The position numbers and the translations under genes are program-made. The notes under the pieces were generated by a model. It saw only the letters and a program-made list of their open reading frames with translations. It did no database searches and was not told the origin of the DNA. A stretch of 14,426 bases of DNA from a virus, in UHGV virus genome UHGV-0061697; one strand, written 5' to 3'. This document shows, in pieces, positions 66 to 8,940 of the stretch; position 1 is the first letter of the stretch, and every line of letters begins with the position of its first letter.

Positions 66-1979
66 ATGAGCAAAGTAAAAATCGGTGAATTAATAAACTC
101 ACTTGTTAGCGATGTTGAGTCAATAGATAACTCTGACCGTCCTCAAGGGGAAAAAACAAAAAAAATAAAGGCTGTTGCATTAAAATTTAAAAATGCATTA
201 TTTAATGACAAGCGAAAGTTTAGGGGGAAAGGATTAGAAAAAAGAATTACAGCCAACACATTCAATGCCTATATGAGCAGGGCCAGAAAACGGTTTGATG
301 ATAAACTTCATCATAGCTTTGAAAAAAATATACATCGCCTATCTGAAAAGTATCCTTTATATAATGAGGAGCTATTGTCATGGCTTTCTCTACCTGCTGC
401 CGATATTCGCCAGAGAATGTCAGCTTTACAGGCAAAATTAAAATTAATTCTCCCTTTATCAGAAGATTTATCTAATATCAGAATTGGTGATAACAAAAGT
501 CATAATAAGTTATTAAAATTATCAAATAAATATAAAGAGTGGCAATTCGCCATATCTGATTTAACTAGCGATAACTGGAAAGATAAGCGCGATTATTTAT
601 ATAAATTACTACAGCAAGGATCTGCCTTACTTGAGGAGTTGAATCAGCTAAAAGTTAACCATGAGATTCTCTATCATCTTCAACTAAGCCCTGCCGAACG
701 CGCATCTATCCAGCAACGATGGGCGGACGTTCTGCACAATAAGAAACGTAACGTGGTGGTCATTGATTACCCTAAATATATGCAAGCTATTTACGATATT
801 ATAAATAGCCCTGCTACATTAAATAATCTAAACACTCGTTCAGGTATGGCTCCTTTGGCATTTGCACTTGCAGCATTGTCAGGAAGACGAATGATTGAGA
901 TTATGTATCAAGGTACATTTACTGTTTCTGGTAAGTATACCGTTGATTTTTTAGGCCAAGCAAAAAAAAGAACTTCTGATGATATAACCAGAAAAATATA
1001 TACATTATGCGAAGCAAAAACATTTGTTTATTTAATAAATGTACTTCGCTCATGCCCAGCAGCATCTGATTTTGATGATGTCGTTAAAGGTTATGGAGAT
1101 AACGACACACGCTCTGAAAACGGACGGATTAATGCCATATTAGCAAAGGCTTTTAACCCGTGGGTTAAATCATTTTTCAAAGATGACCGCCGTGTTTATA
1201 AAGATAGTCGTGCTATTTATGCCCGTATTGCGTATGAAATGTTTTTCCGCGTAGATCCTCGTTGGAAAAACGTAGATGAGGATGTTTTCTTTATGGAAAT
1301 TTTAGGCCATGACGATGAAAACACTCAATTACACTATAAGCAATTCAAGCTGGCCAACTTCTCAAAGACATGGAGGCCAAATACTGGAAACGAAAATACC
1401 AGGCTGGAAGCATTGCAGCAGCTTGATGACGAAATGCCAGGATTCGCCAGAGGAGATGCCGGGGTTCGTCTGCATAACACAGTTAAGCAGCTGGTAGAGC
1501 AGGACCCCTCTATAAAAATCACGAACAGCACTCTAAGAGCATTCAAATTTAGCCCTACAATGATTAGTCGATACCTGGAATTTGCTGCTGATGCTCTGGG
1601 GCAATTTGTTGGCGAAAATGGACAATGGCAGCTGAAAATAGATTCTCCAGAAATCGTTATGCCTGACGAAGAAGAGCTGGAAGCAATACCTGAACAGACG
1701 GATGAATTATCAGAGGATGACGATCTGGATGACGACGAAATTGAGATAGAGGAAGAGGAAGAGGAAGAGGAAGAGGAAGAGGAAGAGAGCGTAGAAGAAC
1801 AGCAACCGCCCGCGCCTTCTTCACCTGTATCTAAGCCGGTATTTAAGCCCGTGAGAAATATTGGTGATGGCTCATACGTTGTTGAGTTTCATTATAATGG
1901 CCAGAATTATGCTTGGTCCGGCATTGCAAACAGCCCTATATCAGCAATGCAGTTAGCATGGCTGACATATTTCGGATAA
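66..1979 (+). CDS. telN: Protelomerase (telomere resolvase) TelN, 637 aa
   Basis: Full-length ORF from track. N-terminus MSKVKIGELIN...RPQGEKTKKIKA...NALFNDKRKFRGKGLEKRITANTFNAYMSRARKRFDDKLHHSF and the C-terminal half (...RVYKDSRAIYARIAYEMFFRVDPRWKNVDEDVFFMEILGHDDENTQLHYKQFKLANF...) match my memory of phage N15 TelN almost residue for residue. Length is about that of N15 TelN (about 630 aa). GGAG RBS upstream. Identity is from recall, not a database search. Confidence 0.9.
   Translation: MSKVKIGELINSLVSDVESIDNSDRPQGEKTKKIKAVALKFKNALFNDKRKFRGKGLEKRITANTFNAYMSRARKRFDDKLHHSFEKNIHRLSEKYPLYNEELLSWLSLPAADIRQRMSALQAKLKLILPLSEDLSNIRIGDNKSHNKLLKLSNKYKEWQFAISDLTSDNWKDKRDYLYKLLQQGSALLEELNQLKVNHEILYHLQLSPAERASIQQRWADVLHNKKRNVVVIDYPKYMQAIYDIINSPATLNNLNTRSGMAPLAFALAALSGRRMIEIMYQGTFTVSGKYTVDFLGQAKKRTSDDITRKIYTLCEAKTFVYLINVLRSCPAASDFDDVVKGYGDNDTRSENGRINAILAKAFNPWVKSFFKDDRRVYKDSRAIYARIAYEMFFRVDPRWKNVDEDVFFMEILGHDDENTQLHYKQFKLANFSKTWRPNTGNENTRLEALQQLDDEMPGFARGDAGVRLHNTVKQLVEQDPSIKITNSTLRAFKFSPTMISRYLEFAADALGQFVGENGQWQLKIDSPEIVMPDEEELEAIPEQTDELSEDDDLDDDEIEIEEEEEEEEEEEEESVEEQQPPAPSSPVSKPVFKPVRNIGDGSYVVEFHYNGQNYAWSGIANSPISAMQLAWLTYFG
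1749..1787. repeat. Tandem hexanucleotide repeat (GAGGAA)x6 plus partial unit inside telN, encoding a poly-Glu tract (13 E)
   Basis: Directly visible: gaggaa repeated six times from 1749 to 1784, then gag. In frame, so slippage would change tract length by two Glu per unit. Confidence 0.95.
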
Positions 1980-2107
1980 AGCATGGCCGTAGAATCAATA
2001 CCCGCCGCCATACACACATCAGATGCAACAAACCACGGTTCGCCGTTAATCATCACTACACGAACCTGATGCTCTTCCTGAAAGGAAAATACTGCTAACG
2101 CGCTCAT
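1907..2107 (-). CDS. Short BRO-N-like antirepressor N-terminal fragment (66 aa), possibly a truncated antB-like gene
   Basis: The N-terminus MSALAVFSFQEEHQVRVVMINGEPWFVASDVC resembles the start of BRO-N/antirepressor domains (F-x-F...VR...I-x-GEPWFVA-x-DVC). The ORF ends after 66 aa and its last 73 nt lie on the opposite strand of the telN 3' end. The ATG overlaps the stop of the upstream gene (ATGA). Confidence 0.45.
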   Translation of the reverse strand: MSALAVFSFQEEHQVRVVMINGEPWFVASDVCMAAGIDSTAMLYPKYVSHANCIADIGLFAMPDQA

Positions 2108-2337
2108 TCAGCCTCCTTATCGTGCAGCAATTGCGACGAGAGCGATGCTGAATAACCCTGTGCTTCGTGTGTGAGCTCACACGCAATTTGAAGAAGTTTC
2201 CCTGCTTCTGAGAGATAAATCGACGCCTCACAACTGGAGATTGTCCGATGGGCTGATGATACGAGCGCATAGACCTGAGCCAGACGTTCATCCAACGATT
2301 CCAGCAGGCCAACAGTGTTCATTTTTACCTGATTCAT
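2104..2337 (-). CDS. Hypothetical 77-aa protein, middle gene of the immA-like operon (antA-like by position)
   Basis: ORF from track (MNQVKMNTVGLLESLDERLAQVYALV...). Start and stop both form ATGA overlaps with neighbours (icd-like upstream, BRO-N fragment downstream). The antA assignment is positional inference only. Confidence 0.45.
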   Translation of the reverse strand: MNQVKMNTVGLLESLDERLAQVYALVSSAHRTISSCEASIYLSEAGKLLQIACELTHEAQGYSASLSSQLLHDKEAE

Positions 2338-2498
2338 GCAGCCACCTCGCGCACCGGAATACGGGCAGACAATACCAGGACAAACCGGCTGGCGAACTGG
2401 CGACGAGCTTCCCGTTCAGATGACGCGATGGTGGAAAGATGATGGATGTGTGACTTTTTGTCTGTGCGAACGATTGCCGCAAATTTGAATTTGAACAT
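2334..2498 (-). CDS. icd: Icd-like small protein (cell-division inhibitor family of P1/N15 anti-immunity operons), 54 aa
   Basis: Not in the ORF track as such; I derived it by translating the minus strand from the ATG at 2498..2496, which has a GGAG about 8 nt upstream: MFKFKFAAIVRTDKKSHIHHLSTIASSEREARRQFASRFVLVLSARIPVREVAA. The S-E-R-E-A-R-R core and L-x-L-S-A-R-I-P-V tail match my memory of Icd-like proteins. Stop overlaps the next ATG. Confidence 0.55.
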   Translation of the reverse strand: MFKFKFAAIVRTDKKSHIHHLSTIASSEREARRQFASRFVLVLSARIPVREVAA

Positions 2499-2549
2499 GG
2501 TATGCACTCCGTTTAATTGGTCGTGCTACCACCAGAGTTCCTACGCTCT

Positions 2550-2632
2550 ATATGGCGGTAGCCCAGACGGGGGTAGGAATACCGGTAAACGAAGAAACCG
2601 GCCAGCTAAAAGCTGCCCCATCTGAGCCACCA
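2550..2632 (-). ncRNA. Candidate c4/CA-like antisense immunity RNA in the leader of the icd operon (boundaries approximate)
   Basis: About 370 nt of non-coding leader upstream of icd on the minus strand. It contains stable hairpins (CCGGU-N10-ACCGG, CAGCU-UUU-AGCUG), a tRNA-like 5' segment (GGUGGCUCAGAUGG), and an element UUCCUACC complementary to two identical copies of GTTCCTACGC (plus strand 2538-2547 and 2704-2713) that flank it. This arrangement recalls the P4 CI and P1 c4 systems. Ends were not determined. Confidence 0.3.
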
Positions 2633-2796
2633 TAAATTTGGTGTACGCAGATTTTACACACAAAAAAACACGCTGGCGCGTGTTGTGCGCTTCATTTACT
2701 CGGGTTCCTACGCCCGGCTACGGGATTTACCGTAGCGGAGTAAACTTTACCGTCAAAACGACGCGCACGTCAATAATTTGCAAAGACATTTTACCC

Positions 2797-2810
2797 CGTG
2801 ACCAGTCACG
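2797..2810. repeat. 14-bp palindromic motif CGTGACCAGTCACG (copy 1 of 3; extended palindrome ccccgtgaccagtcacgggg 2794-2813)
   Basis: Exact 14-mer, the reverse complement of the copies at 7477-7490 and 13483-13496. Lies in the intergenic region between the 103-aa gene and the immA leader; a T-run follows on the plus strand (gtgttttta). Confidence 0.5.
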
Positions 2811-2874
2811 GGGACAGGTGTTTTTATAATTTGCTTGAACGAGTGATCAGAAGTTGATCGTTAATCAAAGGCCA

Positions 2875-3183
2875 TTACTGATTAAGAGATTGGAAATACC
2901 TAACTAACTTACCGGCATCATCACATTTTTCTTTATCTTCGTTCTTAACATAGCCGCGACAAAAGGCTGAATAAAATTTTGCATTTTCAGAAGCAAAAGC
3001 AGCCGTCGAAAGGAGCAGCTCTTTGCATGACTCTTTTGATGCAGCATCGGGATTATTTTTACATGCAAGCTCCGCTGATGAGTTAATAACAGAAATGCTA
3101 TCTTCCTGGGCATAAACCGCAGCAGAAAAGGCAAAACATAAAACAAAAATAAAACTCTTCACTTTATCTCCTGTAACAGTCAT
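2875..3183 (-). CDS. Small secreted Cys-containing protein (about 102 aa, predicted signal peptide)
   Basis: ORF from track. N-terminus MTVTGDKVKSFIFVLCFAFSAAVYA-QEDS has the n/h/c layout of a Sec signal peptide with an AxA-like cleavage site. Mature part has 4 Cys. No lipobox. ATG at 3183 preferred over GTG at 3186. Confidence 0.5.
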   Translation of the reverse strand: MTVTGDKVKSFIFVLCFAFSAAVYAQEDSISVINSSAELACKNNPDAASKESCKELLLSTAAFASENAKFYSAFCRGYVKNEDKEKCDDAGKLVRYFQSLNQ

Positions 3184-3189
3184 CACAAT

Positions 3190-3585
3190 TCAATCAACTT
3201 TTTTAGCATCAGCCATACGATTCAACCAGGAATCAACAATCGGTTGCTCATCTACAGAATGTTTACCAGGTATAACTCGCCAGCTATCTTGCGAAAATCT
3301 GCCGTACTTACGCGGGAATAGGCCTTTCTTTATCTCCCGCCATGTACTAGGAAAACCATCCACAAAAGTACCAATTAACAGGAGAGGGACAAAAATCAGA
3401 GCTACAAACCATTGCGCAAGAAAGTGTTCAACAACAACATTTTCACCGTTGTAGTAATACGCATACGCATCCAATATGCGAATTTTCCTTACCTTAAAAA
3501 TAGCCTTATGCTGAGAACGACTTAACTTGATACGAATGTATCCCTTATCCAAAGGGGATTCGTATTTGTATGATTGAACAGCCAT
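3190..3585 (-). CDS. Hypothetical membrane protein (about 131 aa, one predicted TM helix)
   Basis: ORF from track, start moved to the ATG at 3585 (2 nt after the upstream stop). Hydrophobic segment FLAQWFVALIFVPLLLIGTFV. No recognisable family. Confidence 0.5.
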   Translation of the reverse strand: MAVQSYKYESPLDKGYIRIKLSRSQHKAIFKVRKIRILDAYAYYYNGENVVVEHFLAQWFVALIFVPLLLIGTFVDGFPSTWREIKKGLFPRKYGRFSQDSWRVIPGKHSVDEQPIVDSWLNRMADAKKVD

Positions 3586-3587
3586 TT

Positions 3588-3914
3588 TTAACCCCACTCA
3601 CCATCAGCAAACAAAGCGTTATACTCTGACAATGGTAGACGGTTGCCCTCGATGTAGAGATTCAGTTCATACTTCGTCTCCGGGTTTTCCTTGTCGGCTC
3701 GTTCCCAACGCTCAGCAGCCTTACGCGCCAATAATTCCACTGCTTTCAGATAATCCTCCGTACGGAACCAGCCAAAGATAAGGCCACGATCTGTTACAGC
3801 CCAGGCGACCTTTTTTTCTTCCTCCTGGATAGCCCTAATGCGTCGTTCGCACTCATCCCGGCAGAACTGCAGCTGACGGTAATCAAGTTTGTCCAAAAAT
3901 GCCGTAGTAGACAT
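3588..3914 (-). CDS. Hypothetical protein, 108 aa
   Basis: ORF from track (MSTTAFLDKLDYRQLQFCRDECERR...). Tightly packed between neighbours on the same strand. No family recognised. Confidence 0.5.
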   Translation of the reverse strand: MSTTAFLDKLDYRQLQFCRDECERRIRAIQEEEKKVAWAVTDRGLIFGWFRTEDYLKAVELLARKAAERWERADKENPETKYELNLYIEGNRLPLSEYNALFADGEWG

Positions 3915-3918
3915 ATTT

Positions 3919-4110
3919 TTACTCCCCGTTCACCGAAAATTCACGATAGAAACGTTTCCACATACGATAAGTCTGCGCAAATTGTTCACCACGAAACATC
4001 GCCTTCCTGGCCTTCATGTTTTCCTTGTGAGACTTTCGGTCTATGAACCAAAACCATTGATGGAACACACAAAGCAAGAGACACAAAGATAATATCCAAT
4101 CATTACCCAT
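3919..4110 (-). CDS. Small hydrophobic/basic protein (63 aa), start overlapping the repA stop
   Basis: Internal ATG of track ORF 3919..4227 (MGNDWILSLCLLLCVFHQWFWFIDRKSHKEN...). The track's longer version would overlap 125 nt of repA. One TM-like segment followed by a basic tail. Could be spurious. Confidence 0.35.
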   Translation of the reverse strand: MGNDWILSLCLLLCVFHQWFWFIDRKSHKENMKARKAMFRGEQFAQTYRMWKRFYREFSVNGE

Positions 4111-7100
4111 AGAAAGCGCCCTGCTCTTCGTAGCTGCATGAGCTATTCCCCGTAATGTATTCACGTAACCGCCGCAGCTCATTGCTGGAAAGGTGATCCA
4201 TGAACTCTGTGAGGTACAGGGATGCAAACGTCATAGCTATGCTGGCTGATGACCATGATGACATAGTGGCCAACTCCTCACTGGAAAGCGCACTCATCGC
4301 CCAGGACTCAGGTACAGCCACTGGCAACACGGCCAAAGCCTCAGAAATTACTGAATGAGGGGCGTTTTGAACCTGCTCGTTTGTGGATCGCGTTTTATCA
4401 TCCATATATATATTGAGATCCAAATCGCGATCCATTTCGATGGCTGTCTTCTCGGCTTTACGCGTTTTTAGGGTTAGGCCATCTTTCTGACGCTGAACAA
4501 GAATATCCAGCATAAATGCCGCTGATTCAGGCTCAACAAAACGCAAGGTTGGACGCTTATCGCCGTCTCTGCCGCGACGTTTACCTGTTTTAAGGCCAAG
4601 AGAGTCGCAAATGTTTTTAAACAACGCTTCCGGCACTTTAGGCTTCCCTTTTGGCGTCATAAAACCACCAATGTGCAGAACGTTATTCAACAGGTCACGG
4701 CGTTCGGCTGTCATGAGGTTATCTCGAGCGAATTTGAGACGCTCCTGAGTCGCCTCGCCGGTCATAGTCTCAGGGTTGATACCGCAGTCGATAAAGTACT
4801 GCCGGAGAGTTGCTGATTTAAGCGCATAGAAACCGCGCGCCCCGACTTCAACAGTAGGAGTAGCTTTTACCTTGTGATCGATTATTCCAGGGAATTTAGT
4901 TTTAAAGACATCATCAGCCTGCTCGCGAGTCATCGCGGTCACTACAAAATATTGCCACTGTCCCGCCTGACGGTATGCGTAGGTAAAATTGATGGCTGCT
5001 TCTTCCCGGTCGTAACGACGAGCTGTTACCTCATCTAAAAGCATTGTTTCATAGCGGCGAACTTTGTCTCGAGCACCATCGAAATAGAATTTCAGCGTGC
5101 CTTCTTCAACCGGTAGTTTCAGTTCGTTTTCAATATCCCAGCGGACAAGTTTTGCCTGTTCTTCAAGCGTCAGCGCGCGTTTTTTTAGCAGTTCTTCACG
5201 CTCTGATTCTTGTGGAGTTTCTGTATTGAGGTGCAGATCCAGTGTCTGTTCCCACACAATATCCCGCGCTTCTTTACGCAGATCTTTACCGATATCATTC
5301 GCAGCATAATCGGTGGCCAGCGGTGATACCTTATAACCGTCGCTGTGCATGATGCAGATCATGTTGCTGGCGTAGTCGTTACGCGCAGTCGCTTCAATTG
5401 CGGCTGCTTTAATTTTCATCCTGGTAAAGTCGGTATTGGCCACCCCCATTGATATACGGTCGCCATCGAAAACGACATCCGTCAGTTCACCGTTCATACC
5501 TGCGGTAGCAAGCAATGCCTGGGCGAATGCTCGTTCTATTTTTTGCGGGTCAGTTTCACGTTTTGCACGAGCTTTATCAAAGCCGATAATAAATTCTTTT
5601 GCTGTACGGTCGCGGCGTAGCATTTGCACTGCGTCGCTGGGTACAACTTCACCACAGAACATGCCGAAATGACGGTCAAAATGTTTTTGCTCAATCGACA
5701 CGCCGGATGAAATAGACGGGCTATAAATCAGGCCGTCGTATTTTTTGACCATCTTTTTCGGTTGATTGGTAAATGCTTCAACTTCTGGCTCTGGTTTGTT
5801 TTTCTGGTTTACACACAGAAATTTCTTACCAGGAAAATGCATTCTCAGGGTGGCTGTCACATCTTCTGCAAAGGTGGAGCTGTCGGTGGCCAACATGATT
5901 TTTTCGCCATCCGATACAGCTTTCACCACCTCGGTCATGATGCGATCTTTTTCTGTATAAAAAACCCGGATTGGCTCACCTGTTTCGCGGTTGCGAACAT
6001 CAACAGGTAATTCAATTACGTGGATCTGCAGCCATGCCGGTAAACCTAGTTCTTCACGGCGTTTCATAGCCAGTTCAGCCAGGTCAACCAGTAGATCGTT
6101 CGCATCAGCATCCACCATGATTGGGTGTTGTTCCGTTCTGGCCAGCGCGTCAATTAGCGTATTGAATACAGCAACCGGGTTTTCCATAGCCCGACCGGAA
6201 AGAACGGCACGTAGCCCTTGCGTGGCCTCGTCAAAGCCAAAATAGTCGTGCTGGCGCATCAACGGTTGCCAGCAGTTTTTAACAATCGAGTTTATGCAGA
6301 TGGTCAGTTTACTGGCGTATGGAGCCATTTCCTGATAGCCAGGGTCCTGATAGTGCAGGATATCGGCTTTTACACCTTTTCCTTCTGTCATCATTTCCCA
6401 CAGGCCACCAATAAGGGAGACACGGTGAGCAACAGAGATACCACGTTCTGAGCTATGCATTAACGGTCGTAACAATCCAGTAGATTTGCCGGAACCCATA
6501 CCAGCACGGACGATGACTATCCCCTGTAGTGATTGCACGTACTTCAGGACATCATCGGTCATTACCGAAGTTTCAAAACGCTTATAGGTGATATGTTGAG
6601 GGCGTTTATTGGGATCAGTTATGCGTTCGCTGAAAGAGCGCGGAGCCTGGGCAATACGGCACTTTTTATTCAGGCGACGGGCAATGTGGTCTTTTACCGT
6701 AGCACGATAGATATTTTCCAGTCCCATTTCACGCAGAACGATGCAGAACATGTTAAATAAATCTGACGGACTGTTAGGAACCGGGCAGGTTAGCATGCCA
6801 ATATCCACCGCTCTCAGCAGCTCTTTGGCAAAAGTACGACGGTTATCCCGCTTAATTGTCTTCAGGCGGTTGAGCGTCAGAGATAGCAAATCAGTACCGG
6901 TTTTCAGGCGGTTTGCTGTTGCAAATAGTTGACGTGCTGTTTCACGAAGTCCACGTAGTTTGTGCAGGTCGTTGAAGTCACTGCACTCCATTTGCGGATC
7001 GTCTTCAAAAGTTGGATAGACGCAGCGGACATCGTTGAATTTCGATAAGATTTCATAGCCAGTCCGCAGGCCGGTATTCCCTTTTCCTTCTGTGGCAGAT

Positions 7101-8098
7101 TTCCGGTCATTATCCAGTGCGCAGGTGATTTTTGCCGCCGGGTACATGTTTACCAGTTGTTCCACAACATGAACCATGTTGTTAGCGGATACAGCGACAA
7201 CCACAGCGTCAAAGCGTTTATCTTTTTTCGTGGCAAGCCAGATGGATGCACCAGTAGCAAAACCTTCTGTAACAGCGATGTTTTGCGCCCCTTTCAGCTC
7301 ACCGATAACAAAGCAGGCACCGACGAAATCGCCGCTGGTTACTGCGCTGGTCTGGTATTTCCCACCTTGTTTGTCGATTCGCTGCCAACCCACAATACGA
7401 CCATCATAACGACCGTCCAGGTGAGCCAGAGGGATAGCCATATATGTGGTTGGCCCCCGGCTCCATTTCGCACTGTCGTGACTGGTCACGCGACGCACAT
7501 CACATGAACTAAAAACGTCACGAATACCTTTTTTAATCGCATATGGCCATGAGCCGTCTTCAGCCTGAGCATGTTCCCACGCGCTGTGGAATGCCAGCCA
7601 TCCCAGCAAACGTTCATGGTCCATTTGGTTGTTTTTCAGGTCATTAATTCGTTTTTGTTCTTCACGGCGACGACGTGCTTCGGCCTGACGTTCTATTCTT
7701 TCCCGTTCTTCTTCCGGTTGTGCGACCACGGTCGCATTATTCCGTTGTTGCTCACGGCGATATTCAGAAAACAGGAAGGAGAAACCGCTCCATGAGCCAG
7801 CATCGCTGCCTTTATGGACGAAGTTAATGAACGGGTAATCAATCCCTTTGCTGTGTTCCAGCCTGGAGTAAATTTCTACGCGTCCTTTCAGGCTCTTTTC
7901 GAGAGCTTCTGGAGATGTTTTATTGTATGAAGAGTAACGCTCAACCCCCCCGCGAGGGTTGAGTTGGATGTTGTCGGAACAGGCAGGCCAGTTGATACCA
8001 GCCATCTGTGCCAGCTCGGTTAGTTCATCCCGTGCTGCTTCAATTAGCGAGAACGGATCGCTGCCAAAGCGATCCGCATAGAAATCGTTTAATGTCAT
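4103..8098 (-). CDS. repA: Replication protein RepA (multidomain primase-helicase, P4 alpha / N15 RepA family), 1331 aa
   Basis: Single 1331-aa ORF; N15 RepA is about 1320 aa. Walker A motif GMGSGKST is present (RAGMGSGKSTGLL). Position between the immA-like operon and cB matches N15 organisation. Recognition is from memory, not search. Confidence 0.88.
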   Translation of the reverse strand: MTLNDFYADRFGSDPFSLIEAARDELTELAQMAGINWPACSDNIQLNPRGGVERYSSYNKTSPEALEKSLKGRVEIYSRLEHSKGIDYPFINFVHKGSDAGSWSGFSFLFSEYRREQQRNNATVVAQPEEERERIERQAEARRRREEQKRINDLKNNQMDHERLLGWLAFHSAWEHAQAEDGSWPYAIKKGIRDVFSSCDVRRVTSHDSAKWSRGPTTYMAIPLAHLDGRYDGRIVGWQRIDKQGGKYQTSAVTSGDFVGACFVIGELKGAQNIAVTEGFATGASIWLATKKDKRFDAVVVAVSANNMVHVVEQLVNMYPAAKITCALDNDRKSATEGKGNTGLRTGYEILSKFNDVRCVYPTFEDDPQMECSDFNDLHKLRGLRETARQLFATANRLKTGTDLLSLTLNRLKTIKRDNRRTFAKELLRAVDIGMLTCPVPNSPSDLFNMFCIVLREMGLENIYRATVKDHIARRLNKKCRIAQAPRSFSERITDPNKRPQHITYKRFETSVMTDDVLKYVQSLQGIVIVRAGMGSGKSTGLLRPLMHSSERGISVAHRVSLIGGLWEMMTEGKGVKADILHYQDPGYQEMAPYASKLTICINSIVKNCWQPLMRQHDYFGFDEATQGLRAVLSGRAMENPVAVFNTLIDALARTEQHPIMVDADANDLLVDLAELAMKRREELGLPAWLQIHVIELPVDVRNRETGEPIRVFYTEKDRIMTEVVKAVSDGEKIMLATDSSTFAEDVTATLRMHFPGKKFLCVNQKNKPEPEVEAFTNQPKKMVKKYDGLIYSPSISSGVSIEQKHFDRHFGMFCGEVVPSDAVQMLRRDRTAKEFIIGFDKARAKRETDPQKIERAFAQALLATAGMNGELTDVVFDGDRISMGVANTDFTRMKIKAAAIEATARNDYASNMICIMHSDGYKVSPLATDYAANDIGKDLRKEARDIVWEQTLDLHLNTETPQESEREELLKKRALTLEEQAKLVRWDIENELKLPVEEGTLKFYFDGARDKVRRYETMLLDEVTARRYDREEAAINFTYAYRQAGQWQYFVVTAMTREQADDVFKTKFPGIIDHKVKATPTVEVGARGFYALKSATLRQYFIDCGINPETMTGEATQERLKFARDNLMTAERRDLLNNVLHIGGFMTPKGKPKVPEALFKNICDSLGLKTGKRRGRDGDKRPTLRFVEPESAAFMLDILVQRQKDGLTLKTRKAEKTAIEMDRDLDLNIYMDDKTRSTNEQVQNAPHSVISEALAVLPVAVPESWAMSALSSEELATMSSWSSASIAMTFASLYLTEFMDHLSSNELRRLREYITGNSSCSYEEQGAFYG
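4384..4434. other. Candidate internal replication-origin element inside the 3' end of repA: 9-bp inverted repeat TGGATCGCG / CGCGATCCA around an AT-rich spacer with (AT)5 and three GATC sites
   Basis: Read directly: tggatcgcg (4384-4392) and cgcgatcca (4426-4434) flank ttttatcatccatatatatattgagatccaaat. N15-type replicons are reported to carry ori within the 3' part of repA (established knowledge). The function here is inferred. Confidence 0.3.
7477..7490. repeat. 14-bp palindromic motif CGTGACTGGTCACG (copy 2 of 3), inside the repA coding sequence
   Basis: Exact 14-mer identical to 13483-13496 and reverse complement of 2797-2810. Confidence 0.5.
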
Positions 8099-8221
8099 TT
8101 TTTAGCCATTCCATGCGAATTATGTTTTTTCGGGTTGAAAAAATCCGCAGGAGCAGCCACAATAAACGCATCTTGAATTGACGGAATCCGTCGCGTTACT
8201 GTGGCTGCTTCCTGAAAAGGA

Positions 8222-8249
8222 CCCGAGTTTGCCGACTCGGGTTTTTTTT
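8222..8249. terminator. Intrinsic-terminator-like hairpin between cB and repA (stem CCCGAGT/ACTCGGG, 6-nt loop, T8 on plus strand; A-run and UCCUUUU on minus strand)
   Basis: Stem 8222-8228 / 8235-8241 and T-run 8242-8249 read directly. Canonical on the plus strand, weaker in the minus (cB to repA) direction. Possibly bidirectional or an attenuator of read-through into repA. Confidence 0.45.
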
Positions 8250-8343: not shown

Positions 8344-8940
8344 TCATCTACCCTCAACCATGAATGATTTGATCGTTCCGACTATTTGGTGAACAAATTC
8401 AAGATCGCTTTTCCTGAAGATGGCGCGTTGTGAGTTTGTTCCATCCAGATAGTAATTTTCATCATCAAAACGGGCCAGGCGCTGGATAGTGATATTTCCT
8501 GCAGTATCACGAACCAGAACATCCTCGCCGGGGACCAGTTCCAGCGCAGAATCGACCAGGAGAAAATCGCCTGGCTGATAGTTTCCCTGCGTAAGATTGC
8601 TGATAGTTAACGCATACACAGTATTGCGCTGGCTGATGAATGGCAGGAATCGCTCAGTATTTGGAACCTGTCCCGGCTTCCACTCTTCATCCGGCCCACT
8701 TTCAGTTGTGCCAATAACAGGAATGCGATCAGGGTCATATTCTGTCCCATATAGCACCCAATGCACTGGCTTGCGTAAGCACTTAGCCAGGGCAATACCT
8801 ATCTCCAGTGACGGCATTACGTCGCCACGTTCTAAGTTTTGGACGCCTGCTATAGAGATATCGACAGCCTCAGCAACTTCTCGCAACGTCAGCTTCATCT
8901 CTAAACGGCGTGCTTTCAGTCGTTCGCCTCGTGTTTTCAT
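8344..8940 (-). CDS. cB: Prophage repressor CB (N-terminal HTH, C-terminal LexA/CI-like S24 fold), 198 aa
   Basis: ORF from track. N-terminal HTH LTLREVAEAVDISIAGVQNLERG; C-terminal GDFLLVD...GEDVLVRD...ITIQRL pattern typical of the S24-like domain. Divergent from a cro-like gene across an operator-bearing intergenic region. Confidence 0.85.
   Translation of the reverse strand: MKTRGERLKARRLEMKLTLREVAEAVDISIAGVQNLERGDVMPSLEIGIALAKCLRKPVHWVLYGTEYDPDRIPVIGTTESGPDEEWKPGQVPNTERFLPFISQRNTVYALTISNLTQGNYQPGDFLLVDSALELVPGEDVLVRDTAGNITIQRLARFDDENYYLDGTNSQRAIFRKSDLEFVHQIVGTIKSFMVEGR

What the first reader, a model, noticed from the sequence alone, without database searches (positions are those of the whole stretch)
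2875..4110. Uncharacterised four-gene module co-oriented with and immediately downstream of repA
Four small ORFs are packed within a few nucleotides of each other and of the repA stop on the same strand. They encode a secreted 4-Cys protein with a signal peptide, a single-pass membrane protein, a 108-aa soluble protein and a 63-aa hydrophobic/basic peptide. None matches a family I recognise. An envelope-targeted set of proteins expressed from a prophage's replication operon is a plausible superinfection-exclusion or host-modulation module, and is the best candidate in this window for an undescribed function.
Basis: inference. Interest (0 to 1): 0.55.

Follow-up and report, generated by a model that had tools for sequence, protein, structure and literature searches.

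The report
Accessory genes downstream of telomere-phage repA
The four small genes after repA are real. They are not one functional unit: two are conserved backbone genes of N15-like linear phage-plasmids, one is a membrane protein, and one is a mobile secreted cargo gene, all of unknown function, in the slot where Klebsiella relatives carry bacteriocin/immunity genes.

Summary
The window is the right arm of an N15-like (Ravinvirus) telomere phage-plasmid, 95.8% identical to Escherichia phage PhiR46_1. The four minus-strand ORFs exist as described, are tightly packed behind repA, and are conserved under purifying selection.

They are not a co-inherited module.
- wD (63 aa, one TM) and wC (108 aa, 64% identical to N15 gp35) are backbone genes found behind repA in many telomere phages.
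- wB (131/135 aa, one TM) never occurs in the same locus as N15 gp33-like proteins or the telocin immunity protein ImmA among those compared.
- wA (95 aa, signal peptide, four invariant Cys) fills a terminal cargo slot. Relatives there carry lipoproteins, a ParE/HTH pair, an acetyltransferase, TelA/ImmA, or nothing.

Distant wA relatives sit as morons in the tail-gene clusters of other siphophages.

GenBank labels the wA orthologue "Spackle". That is unsupported: only the 16-residue signal peptide aligns with T4 Spackle. No protein matches Pfam, NCBIfam, PADLOC or solved structures.

Best reading: this is the accessory tail of the repA operon, ending in a lysogenic-conversion moron. An envelope-protective role (superinfection exclusion or immunity) is plausible but untested. 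Interest is modest: new members of a known kind.

The parts
4103..8098 (-). repA (1331 aa primase/helicase-type replication protein; N15 gene 37 homologue). It heads the transcription unit that the four ORFs follow.
   Evidence: ORF. Annotated 'primase' or 'CyRepA1 family plasmid replication protein' in relatives.
3919..4110 (-). wD: 63-aa small membrane protein with an N-terminal TM (residues 5-23) and a basic C-terminal tail carrying the conserved motif F(R/K)GE.FA..YRMW.R.YRE. Its start overlaps the repA stop (ATGGGTAA). It is a homologue of NAR688 gp48.
   Evidence: Homologues of 32-53% identity sit in the same position in Klebsiella-type telomere phages. pN/pS 0.36-0.54. No Pfam, PHROG or PADLOC hit.
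3588..3914 (-). wC: 108-aa acidic cytoplasmic alpha/beta protein of the N15 gp35 family (= NAR688 gp49). It is a conserved backbone gene behind repA.
3190..3597 (-). wB: 135-aa (GTG 3597) or 131-aa (ATG 3585) basic protein with a single hydrophobic segment (residues 60-78 of the 131-aa form). It is never found together with N15 gp33-like proteins or ImmA in the loci compared.
   Evidence: phrog_15458. Homologues of 29-97% identity lie immediately after wC in other telomere phages. pN/pS 0.36 over 44 differences. No detectable homology to gp33 (hhalign prob 0.4%). GC 0.402 against 0.487 for repA.
2875..3162 (-). wA: 95-aa secreted (Sec signal peptide, cleavage predicted after A18) helical protein with four invariant Cys (C34, C46, C68, C80). 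It is the moron-type cargo gene in the terminal slot.
   Evidence: phrog_26765. GC 0.378. Replaced by a 270-aa lipoprotein or an IS2 in E. albertii, E. fergusonii and E. coli relatives. Distant relatives sit in other phage contexts.
2794..2813 (-). GC-rich hairpin (CCCCGUGA-CUGG-UCACGGGG) 62 nt after the wA stop. It is the likely end of the repA-wA transcription unit, but the U-tract is weak.
   Evidence: hairpin in the MFE and centroid structures. Not called by the strict terminator scan. Inference.

Best explanation
The interval is the accessory tail of the repA transcription unit of an N15-like telomere phage-plasmid. It is composite, not a single system.

1. wD and wC are backbone genes. 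wD is translationally coupled to repA through the overlapping ATGGGTAA, and wC follows 4 nt later. The wC (N15 gp35) family is kept behind repA across telomere phages, even where no cargo follows. wC most likely serves the replicon or early phage development, not the cell envelope.

2. wB is a small inner-membrane protein. It occupies the position that other telomere phages give to gp33-like proteins or to ImmA, the pore-forming-telocin immunity protein.

3. wA is a moron. It is an AT-rich, independently mobile gene in the terminal cargo slot just before the immA (C4/isrK RNA-icd-ant) operon. This is the same hotspot that holds TelA/ImmA in Klebsiella phages.

Proposed mechanism (inferred, not shown): low-level transcription from the repA promoter in the plasmid prophage reads through to the hairpin at 2794-2813. 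wA is exported by Sec, cleaved after A18 and oxidised to two disulfides. The likely pairs are C34-C46 and C68-C80, each closing a helix-loop-helix. The result would be a compact periplasmic helical protein. Its most likely job is to bind and neutralise something that must cross the periplasm, such as an incoming phage's tail or lysozyme apparatus, or a bacteriocin. That would make it a lysogenic-conversion protection factor, with wB possibly acting at the inner membrane.

Confidence differs by part: about 0.8 for the composite backbone-plus-moron architecture, and about 0.35 for the protective function.
For: Identity of the element
- 95.8% nucleotide identity to Escherichia phage PhiR46_1, and synteny with N15 genes 29-40.

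Independent assortment of the four genes
- tblastn map of about 50 loci and ORF clustering of the wC-to-icd interval.
- L064 carries wC, wB and wA without wD.
- YDC107_1 carries gp36, wB and a 74-aa ORF, without wC or wA.
- L049-L051 have wC directly abutting telN.

Nature of the cargo slot
- Lipoproteins with LLSGC or ILAGC lipoboxes.
- A ParE toxin plus HTH pair, a hexapeptide transferase, and ImmA weakly matching Colicin_im.
- TelA/ImmA placed between RepA and protelomerase, with ImmA detected in lysogen proteomes (PMC12042878).

Moron character of wA
- GC 0.378 against 0.487 for repA.
- Presence/absence polymorphism among more than 94% identical elements.
- Relatives P0091 (same slot, different telomere phage), P0093 (between lambda I-like and J-like tail genes, next to a lipoprotein) and P0094/P0095 (between tail chaperone and tape measure, followed by a terminator).

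Export and disulfides
- Conserved signal peptide and four invariant Cys, and an all-helical prediction.

Operon reading
- Overlaps and short gaps between genes.
- No sigma-70-like site on the minus strand inside 2875-4110.
- A hairpin follows wA.
Against: - No experiment or homology assigns a function to any of the four proteins. Pfam, NCBIfam, PADLOC and PDB searches are empty.
- The wA structure model is poor (pLDDT 64.7), so fold comparison is uninformative.
- In NAR688 lysogens the wD and wC homologues (gp48, gp49), and RepA itself, were not among the nine phage proteins detected. Read-through expression may therefore be very low, and ImmA may use its own promoter.
- The hairpin after wA lacks a proper U-tract.
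- wB topology is ambiguous because both flanks are basic.
- 'wC is always present' is partly circular, because most loci were retrieved with wC as the query. YDC107_1 and L053 lack it.
Confidence: 0.6

Rival explanations
1. This is a single co-evolved four-gene superinfection-exclusion or host-modulation module, with the four products acting together at the envelope.
For: The genes are tightly packed on one strand, and three products are envelope-targeted. The complete set is kept at 94.5% identity or more in 17 plasmid records and in 12 of 5426 complete E. coli genomes.
Against: The genes assort independently across relatives. wC is cytoplasmic, and homologues occur in 145-150 kb Serratia and Acinetobacter phages. 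wA relatives occur without wB, wC or wD. The 17 complete copies are near-identical elements, so their co-occurrence reflects shared ancestry.
Confidence: 0.08
2. wA is a Spackle-type periplasmic inhibitor of a phage tail lysozyme, as its orthologue is labelled in GenBank PV340565 ('Spackle exclusion protein').
For: The annotation. There is a generic resemblance: both are about 95-aa precursors with a Sec signal peptide giving a roughly 75-aa helical, disulfide-containing periplasmic protein.
Against: Profile-versus-sequence hhalign of the wA family against T4 Spackle aligns only residues 1-16, the signal peptide MK(S/K)FIF. phmmer and hmmsearch against PDB do not retrieve 6x6o or 7cn6. Foldseek of the low-confidence model against PDB does not retrieve Spackle. 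The mature proteins have four Cys (wA) against two (Spackle). There are no Pfam or PHROG functional hits.
Confidence: 0.05
3. wB and/or wA are orphan bacteriocin (telocin/colicin) immunity proteins, or wA and wB form a small Sec-exported toxin/immunity pair, occupying the telocin locus.
For: The position matches ImmA/TelA in NAR688-type phages: repA, gp48, gp49, ImmA, TelA. wB never shares a locus with ImmA. Both products are in the envelope. Periplasmic or membrane-anchored immunity proteins are known for peptidoglycan-targeting bacteriocins (established knowledge: pesticin Pim, colicin M Cmi).
Against: The window has no toxin gene: TelA tblastn is negative. A survey of Escherichia and Shigella N15-like elements found no telocin homologues (10.1101/2025.09.12.675607). 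wB has one hydrophobic segment, whereas Byers et al. predict four hydrophobic helices in ImmA, and it has no Colicin_im hit. wA and wB occur without each other. wA is hydrophilic and charged, unlike microcins.
Confidence: 0.15
4. All four are replication or maintenance accessories of RepA, for example membrane tethering of the replisome or copy-number control, with no role in defence.
For: wD is translationally coupled to repA, and wC is conserved behind repA. Copy-number and immunity control elements flank the region.
Against: Godiska et al. describe replication as requiring RepA and TelN (PMC2847241), although their minimal vector was not shown to lack genes 33-36. wA and wB are variable, AT-rich and exported or membrane-located. 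wA relatives live in tail-gene clusters far from any replication gene.
Confidence: 0.12

Closest known systems
N15 genes 33-36 (uncharacterised genes between repA/gene 37 and the antirepressor operon)
   Same: Same position and orientation, with four small genes directly after repA. wC is 64% identical to gp35. The region is followed by the same C4/isrK RNA-icd-ant operon and telN.
   Different: Only gp35 is shared. N15 has gp36 (soluble, 82 aa) where the window has wD. It has gp34 and gp33 where the window has wB and wA. wB and gp33 are both small membrane-type proteins but show no detectable homology.
Telocin-immunity locus of Klebsiella telomere phages (TelA/ImmA etc.; Byers et al. 2025, PMC12042878)
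   Same: Same interval between RepA and protelomerase. The same upstream pair is present (gp48 = wD homologue at 41% identity, gp49 = wC homologue at 65%). The cargo is variable between otherwise related phages, and an inner-membrane protein lies immediately after the gp35-like gene.
   Different: The window has no telocin gene. wB has one predicted TM and no Colicin_im similarity. wA has no counterpart in the described cassettes.
T4 Spackle (sp, gene 61.3; PDB 6X6O/7CN6)
   Same: Size, Sec signal peptide, and a small helical periplasmic disulfide-containing protein. The GenBank label on the PhiR46_1 orthologue.
   Different: No sequence similarity beyond the signal peptide, a different Cys pattern, and no fold match obtained.
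Lambdoid 'morons' encoding envelope proteins (lambda lom/bor, phi80/N15 cor, HK97 gp15 class)
   Same: Small AT-rich genes present or absent between close relatives. They are inserted between conserved genes, encode secreted, lipo- or membrane proteins, and are often involved in exclusion. wA relatives sit at classic moron sites in tail clusters, and one has a downstream terminator.
   Different: No sequence relationship. No own promoter was detected for wA in the window, and no phenotype is known.
Plant invertase / pectin-methylesterase inhibitor (PMEI) domain
   Same: A helical protein with a C-x8-C disulfide-stapled N-terminal hairpin. The sequence 'CKN.p...(l/s)C.k.(l/v)ls' aligns with the wA family profile.
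   Different: E = 0.81, which is not significant. Only 33 residues align and the kingdom is different. This is a lead only.

Membership tests
T4 Spackle family | Detectable sequence homology of the mature domain to T4 Sp | tested here: not met
   hhalign of the wA family against Sp aligns only signal-peptide residues 1-16. PDB phmmer and hmmsearch do not retrieve 6x6o or 7cn6.
T4 Spackle family | Spackle fold (6X6O/7CN6) | tested here: inconclusive
   The AF2 model has pLDDT of only 64.7. Foldseek against PDB gives no hit with E<1 and Spackle is not listed.
T4 Spackle family | Sec-exported small periplasmic protein | tested here: met
   Conserved signal peptide with A-x-A|Q/E. This is a generic feature and not diagnostic.
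T4 Spackle family | Binds and inhibits the gp5 tail lysozyme and excludes T-even phages | not testable with these tools
   Needs biochemistry or plating assays.
N15 gp35 family (phrog_10878) | Full-length sequence homology to N15 gp35 | tested here: met
   wC is 63.6% identical over 107 aa, E 8e-52. phrog_10878 E 2e-52.
N15 gp35 family (phrog_10878) | Position downstream of repA in telomere phages | tested here: met
Telocin/immunity cassette | Located between repA and telN of a telomere phage | tested here: met
Telocin/immunity cassette | Bacteriocin-like toxin gene present | tested here: not met
   No TelA hit in the window. No bacteriocin Pfam hit for any of the four proteins.
Telocin/immunity cassette | Multi-pass Colicin_im-type immunity protein | tested here: not met
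   wB has a single hydrophobic segment and no Pfam hit. ImmA hits Colicin_im at E 6e-5, below the curated cut-off.
Phage moron (wA) | Presence/absence or replacement polymorphism between closely related phages | tested here: met
   wA is replaced by a 270-aa lipoprotein or by an IS2 in otherwise 94-98% identical elements.
Phage moron (wA) | Base composition distinct from flanking backbone | tested here: met
   GC 0.378 against 0.487-0.495 for repA and wC.
Phage moron (wA) | Own promoter and terminator | tested here: inconclusive
   No sigma-70-like site upstream in the window, and only a hairpin with a weak U-tract downstream. A relative in a tail cluster has a clear downstream terminator.
Phage moron (wA) | Expressed from the prophage | not testable with these tools
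   Indirect only: ImmA in the same slot is expressed in NAR688 lysogens.
Known anti-phage defence systems (PADLOC) | Match to any PADLOC-DB model | tested here: not met
   Zero hits at E<=1 for all four proteins.

The most novel reading that the evidence does not exclude
The wA family (signal peptide plus two C-x8-13-C stapled helical hairpins, about 75 aa mature) could be an unrecognised class of periplasmic protection factor. It would be a functional analogue of Spackle or of periplasmic bacteriocin-immunity proteins, but unrelated in sequence. It would hop as a moron between at least three insertion sites in temperate enterobacterial siphophages. Separately, the repA-coupled pair wD-wC could be a conserved membrane-anchored accessory of telomere-phage replication.
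Probability: 0.2. Interest if true: 0.6.

Novelty: new member of a known kind. Interest (0 to 1): 0.33.

Why it matters
- It places an uncharacterised E. coli/Shigella gene set at the hotspot that arms Klebsiella telomere phages with bacteriocins. That marks wA and wB as the obvious candidates for what these phage-plasmids give their Escherichia hosts.
- It defines a small, conserved, secreted four-Cys protein family that recurs as a moron in three phage contexts. The family is a tractable target for exclusion or immunity screens.
- It flags a 'Spackle' label in GenBank that rests only on signal-peptide similarity and could spread to other records.
- It separates the conserved repA-linked genes (the wD and wC/gp35 families) from cargo. 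That split is useful for anyone dissecting N15-type replication or building N15-based linear vectors.

Tried and rejected
- **Family and structure searches.** Pfam, NCBIfam and PADLOC scans of all four proteins gave nothing above noise. A weak DUF2385/TIGR02301 hit for wA (E 0.06-0.09) was not reproduced in any family member. A weak PMEI/invertase-inhibitor hit (E 0.81) was kept only as a lead.
- **Spackle identity.** Rejected.
- **wA structure.** Too low in confidence to interpret.
- **Paralogy of wC.** Links to gp34, DUF5448-like and YDC74-like cargo proteins are only weak hints: hhalign prob 15-54%, BFVD prob 0.87.
- **wB and gp33.** No homology found.
- **Microcin/immunity pair idea for wA and wB.** Rejected on independent distribution and on wA's hydrophilic composition.
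- **Collection scan.** The genome-contig scan returned one locus only.
- **NAR688 'gp35'.** The proteome hit turned out to be that phage's own numbering (a RelE/ParE toxin), not the wC homologue.
- **Literature.** Searches found no study of N15 genes 33-36 or of PhiR46_1.
Full report
**What the window is**

The ORF map shows a 637-aa protelomerase (66..1979 +), a 1331-aa RepA (4103..8098 -), a LexA/CI-type repressor (8344..8940 -), and Cro/Q-like genes on the plus strand.
- Megablast finds Escherichia phage PhiR46_1 (PV340565, host ECOR13) at 95.8% identity over the region. It also finds the Ravinvirus YDC107_1 over part of it.
- The order matches N15 genes 29-40.
- Rfam places a C4 antisense RNA (2551..2637 -) and isrK (2663..2736 -) just downstream of the finding, behind a promoter-like site at 2773..2744. 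This is the N15-type secondary immunity (immA) operon: RNA, then icd-like and gp31-like genes. It bounds the finding on its distal side.

**Observation check**

The four ORFs are as described.
- wD (3919..4110) starts inside the repA stop (ATGGGTAA).
- wC (3588..3914) starts 4 nt after the wD stop.
- wB starts either 2 nt after the wC stop (ATG 3585, 131 aa) or 10 nt before the end of wC (GTG 3597, 135 aa). Relatives that lack the internal ATG favour the latter.
- wA starts at GTG 3162 behind an AGGAG, 27 nt after wB. Distant relatives begin at the equivalent MK.

- wA carries a signal peptide and four Cys in a 77-aa acidic mature part.
- wB is basic with one strong hydrophobic segment.
- wC is acidic and soluble.
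- wD has an N-terminal TM and a basic tail.

The ORFs are coding.
- Against six to seven close relatives, differences cluster at third codon positions. pN/pS ranges 0-0.54, mostly 0.2-0.5, and no internal stops occur.
- wB compared with an 82%-identical allele shows 44 substitutions and pN/pS 0.36.
- Each protein has divergent homologues that keep its key features.

**Known-family searches**

- Pfam, NCBIfam and PADLOC give nothing credible.
- PHROGs places wA, wB and wC in families of unknown function and has nothing for wD.
- The only functional label in public records is 'Spackle exclusion protein' on the PhiR46_1 orthologue of wA.

I tested that label directly.
- The T4 Spackle sequence was verified against PDB 6x6o.
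- A profile of the wA family aligns with it over residues 1-16 only, which is the signal peptide MK(S/K)FIF.
- Sequence and profile searches of the PDB do not recover Spackle.
- The AF2 model of wA is poor (pLDDT 64.7), and Foldseek against the PDB returns nothing below E = 2.
- Mature Spackle has two Cys and wA has four.

The label is therefore unsupported. It most probably stems from signal-peptide similarity.

**The wA family**

- The word-indexed search found only near-identical or frame-shifted copies.
- The exhaustive HMMER search added four relatives at 33-44% identity over the matched stretch (32-42% in the six-sequence alignment), 91-98 aa.
- The alignment keeps the signal peptide, the A-x-A|Q/E site and all four Cys, arranged as two C-x8-13-C units that each flank a predicted helix-loop-helix.

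Their genomic homes are informative.
- P0091 lies in the same pre-immA slot of a different telomere phage that lacks wB, wC and wD.
- P0093 lies between lambda I-like and J-like tail genes, next to a 137-aa lipoprotein.
- P0094 and P0095 lie between the tail chaperone and the tape-measure gene. One sits beside Arc/Bro-N/ORF6N antirepressor genes, the other beside an FtsK-gamma gene, and a clean terminator follows.
- With its low GC (0.378 against 0.487 for repA), wA behaves as a classical moron.

**wC**

- wC is 64% identical to N15 gp35.
- It has 73 homologues across Escherichia, Salmonella, Klebsiella, Citrobacter, Enterobacter, Serratia and Atlantibacter, on contigs the size of telomere phages.
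- Homologues also occur in NAR688, KpLi5, PY54 (33%) and a few 145-150 kb Serratia and Acinetobacter phages.
- AF2 gives a confident alpha/beta model (pLDDT 93).
- Profile comparisons hint weakly that gp35, gp34, a DUF5448-type 173-aa protein and a 74-aa protein found in this locus are distant paralogues. I treat this as a hint only.

**Comparative anatomy**

Using the wC alignment, I fetched 40 IMG/VR loci and one genome locus. I mapped reference proteins onto them and onto the phage and plasmid loci, then clustered every ORF between wC and icd. The pattern has four positions.
- **repA to wC.** A wD-like gene (32-53% identical, including NAR688 gp48), an N15 gp36-like gene, or nothing.
- **wC.** Present in every locus retrieved with it. 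It is missing in YDC107_1 and L053.
- **After wC.** wB-like (29-97% identical), gp33-like, or ImmA with convergent TelA. No locus has two of these. This position sometimes follows gp34 or DUF5448-type genes.
- **Terminal slot before the immA promoter.** wA; a 270-aa lipoprotein (LLSGC); a 143-aa lipoprotein (ILAGC); the 74-aa protein; a ParE plus HTH pair; a hexapeptide acetyltransferase; an IS2; or nothing.

In L049-L051, wC abuts telN directly.

Distribution in public records:
- 17 PLSDB plasmids carry the full four-gene set at 94.5% identity or more. Six swap wA for the 270-aa lipoprotein gene.
- 17 of 5426 complete E. coli genomes carry any of it, always on plasmids, and 12 carry all of it.
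- L064 combines wC, wB and wA without wD.

The four genes are therefore not a co-inherited unit.

**Link to published work**

Byers et al. [quoted passage not shown] - Their gene table reads gp47 RepA, gp48 hypothetical, gp49 hypothetical, gp50 ImmA, gp51 telocin A, gp52 Icd-like.
- My mapping shows that gp48 and gp49 are the wD and wC homologues. wB and wA therefore sit exactly where ImmA and TelA sit.
- The 'gp35' in their proteome is their own numbering (a RelE/ParE toxin), not the gp35 family. RepA, gp48 and gp49 were not detected, so read-through expression from repA is probably low.
- A survey of clinical Escherichia, Shigella and Salmonella N15-like elements found no telocin homologues (10.1101/2025.09.12.675607). 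That fits a different cargo in this lineage.

**Mechanism**

Shown:
- gene order, overlaps and conservation;
- export signal and invariant Cys;
- independent assortment of the four genes;
- the hotspot nature of the slot.

Inferred:
- The genes are transcribed with repA. No sigma-70-like site was found on the minus strand within the module.
- Transcription ends at a GC-rich hairpin at 2794..2813, though its U-tract is weak.
- wA is exported, cleaved after A18 and disulfide-bonded. It acts in the periplasm as a binding or inhibitory protein that protects the lysogen.
- wB acts at the inner membrane.
- wD and wC serve the replicon or early development.

I put about 0.8 on the architectural conclusion and about 0.35 on a protective function for wA or wB. 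The rivals are the single-module reading, the Spackle homologue, orphan bacteriocin immunity or a toxin-immunity pair, and pure replication accessories. Their evidence is listed in the Rival explanations section.

**Verdict**

- The four are uncharacterised members of known kinds: backbone accessory genes and a moron in a documented cargo hotspot. They are not a new system.
- Points of value are the recurring four-Cys secreted family, the correction of the 'Spackle' label, and the mapping onto the telocin locus.
- Interest is modest (0.33).

Noticed in passing
window 2551-2773 (-): Rfam C4 antisense RNA (2551..2637, 73.6 bits) and isrK (2663..2736, 62.5 bits) lie behind a TTGACG-18-TAAAGT promoter-like site (2773..2744). 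The isrK match ends in the terminator-like hairpin at 2684..2667. This is the N15/P1-type immA control region upstream of the icd-like (2334..2507) and gp31-like (2104..2337) genes. Several spurious ORFs overlap it here and in relatives; one is annotated 'ash family protein' in L064.
   Followed up: partly
L001 (PV340565) 3086-3373: The GenBank annotation 'Spackle exclusion protein' for the wA orthologue appears to rest on signal-peptide similarity only (MKSFIF against MKKFIF). This is a likely mis-annotation that could propagate.
   Followed up: yes
P0003, P0005, P0007, P0008, P0010; window alternative frame 2904..3146 (-): Many public 'homologues' of wA are frame-shifted hybrids that switch into the overlapping 80-aa alternative frame. 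Several come from plasmids with LQQ-prefixed locus tags. They are probably assembly indel errors and not pseudogenes.
   Followed up: no
window 1907-2107 (-): The Bro-N antirepressor (N15 gene 30 homologue, about 260 aa in relatives) is reduced to a 66-aa N-terminal remnant in the window and in most wA-bearing relatives (L001, L013, L016-L022). L064 has wA together with a full-length Bro-N gene.
   Followed up: partly
L014/L015, L025/L026, L030/L032, L035/L036, L044/L045, L049/L050: Several IMG/VR and plasmid records carry the region twice in inverted orientation around telN (for example a 92,470-bp contig holding the region at both ends in opposite orientation, about twice a typical 46-kb telomere-phage genome). 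These are head-to-head dimer assemblies of hairpin-ended linear genomes, and they inflate the 'plasmid' sizes of 62-92 kb seen.
   Followed up: no
L053 3152-4044: In the telomere phage carrying the 44%-identical wA relative, about 900 nt of non-coding DNA precede the gene. It contains many copies of GGCTCGCAAT/ATTGCGAGCC-like repeats in both orientations, a strong terminator, and a second segment resembling the C4/isrK region. It may be an iteron or centromere-like array, or a duplicated immA control region.
   Followed up: no
L029 7246-7954 (-); L023 7258-7896 (-); L011 7100-7531; L004 1576-2388 (-): Other cargo in the same slot: a ParE-toxin/HTH antitoxin pair, a hexapeptide-repeat acetyltransferase, a 143-aa lipoprotein and a 270-aa lipoprotein. 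None of the lipoproteins matches Pfam.
   Followed up: partly
window 8214-8249: A 16-bp-stem hairpin with T/A runs on both sides lies between cB and repA. It corresponds to the N15 stem-loop annotated as a putative terminator, and is probably the attenuator that limits repA-operon transcription in lysogens.
   Followed up: no
window 1650-1760 (+), TelN C-terminal region: The protelomerase carries a long acidic run (DDLDDDEIEIEEEEEEEEEEEEES) before its C-terminal domain.
   Followed up: no
H43-H46: gp35/wC-family homologues (31-42% identity) occur in 145-150 kb Serratia and Acinetobacter phages and in a 57-kb Pseudomonas phage. The family is therefore not restricted to telomere phages.
   Followed up: no
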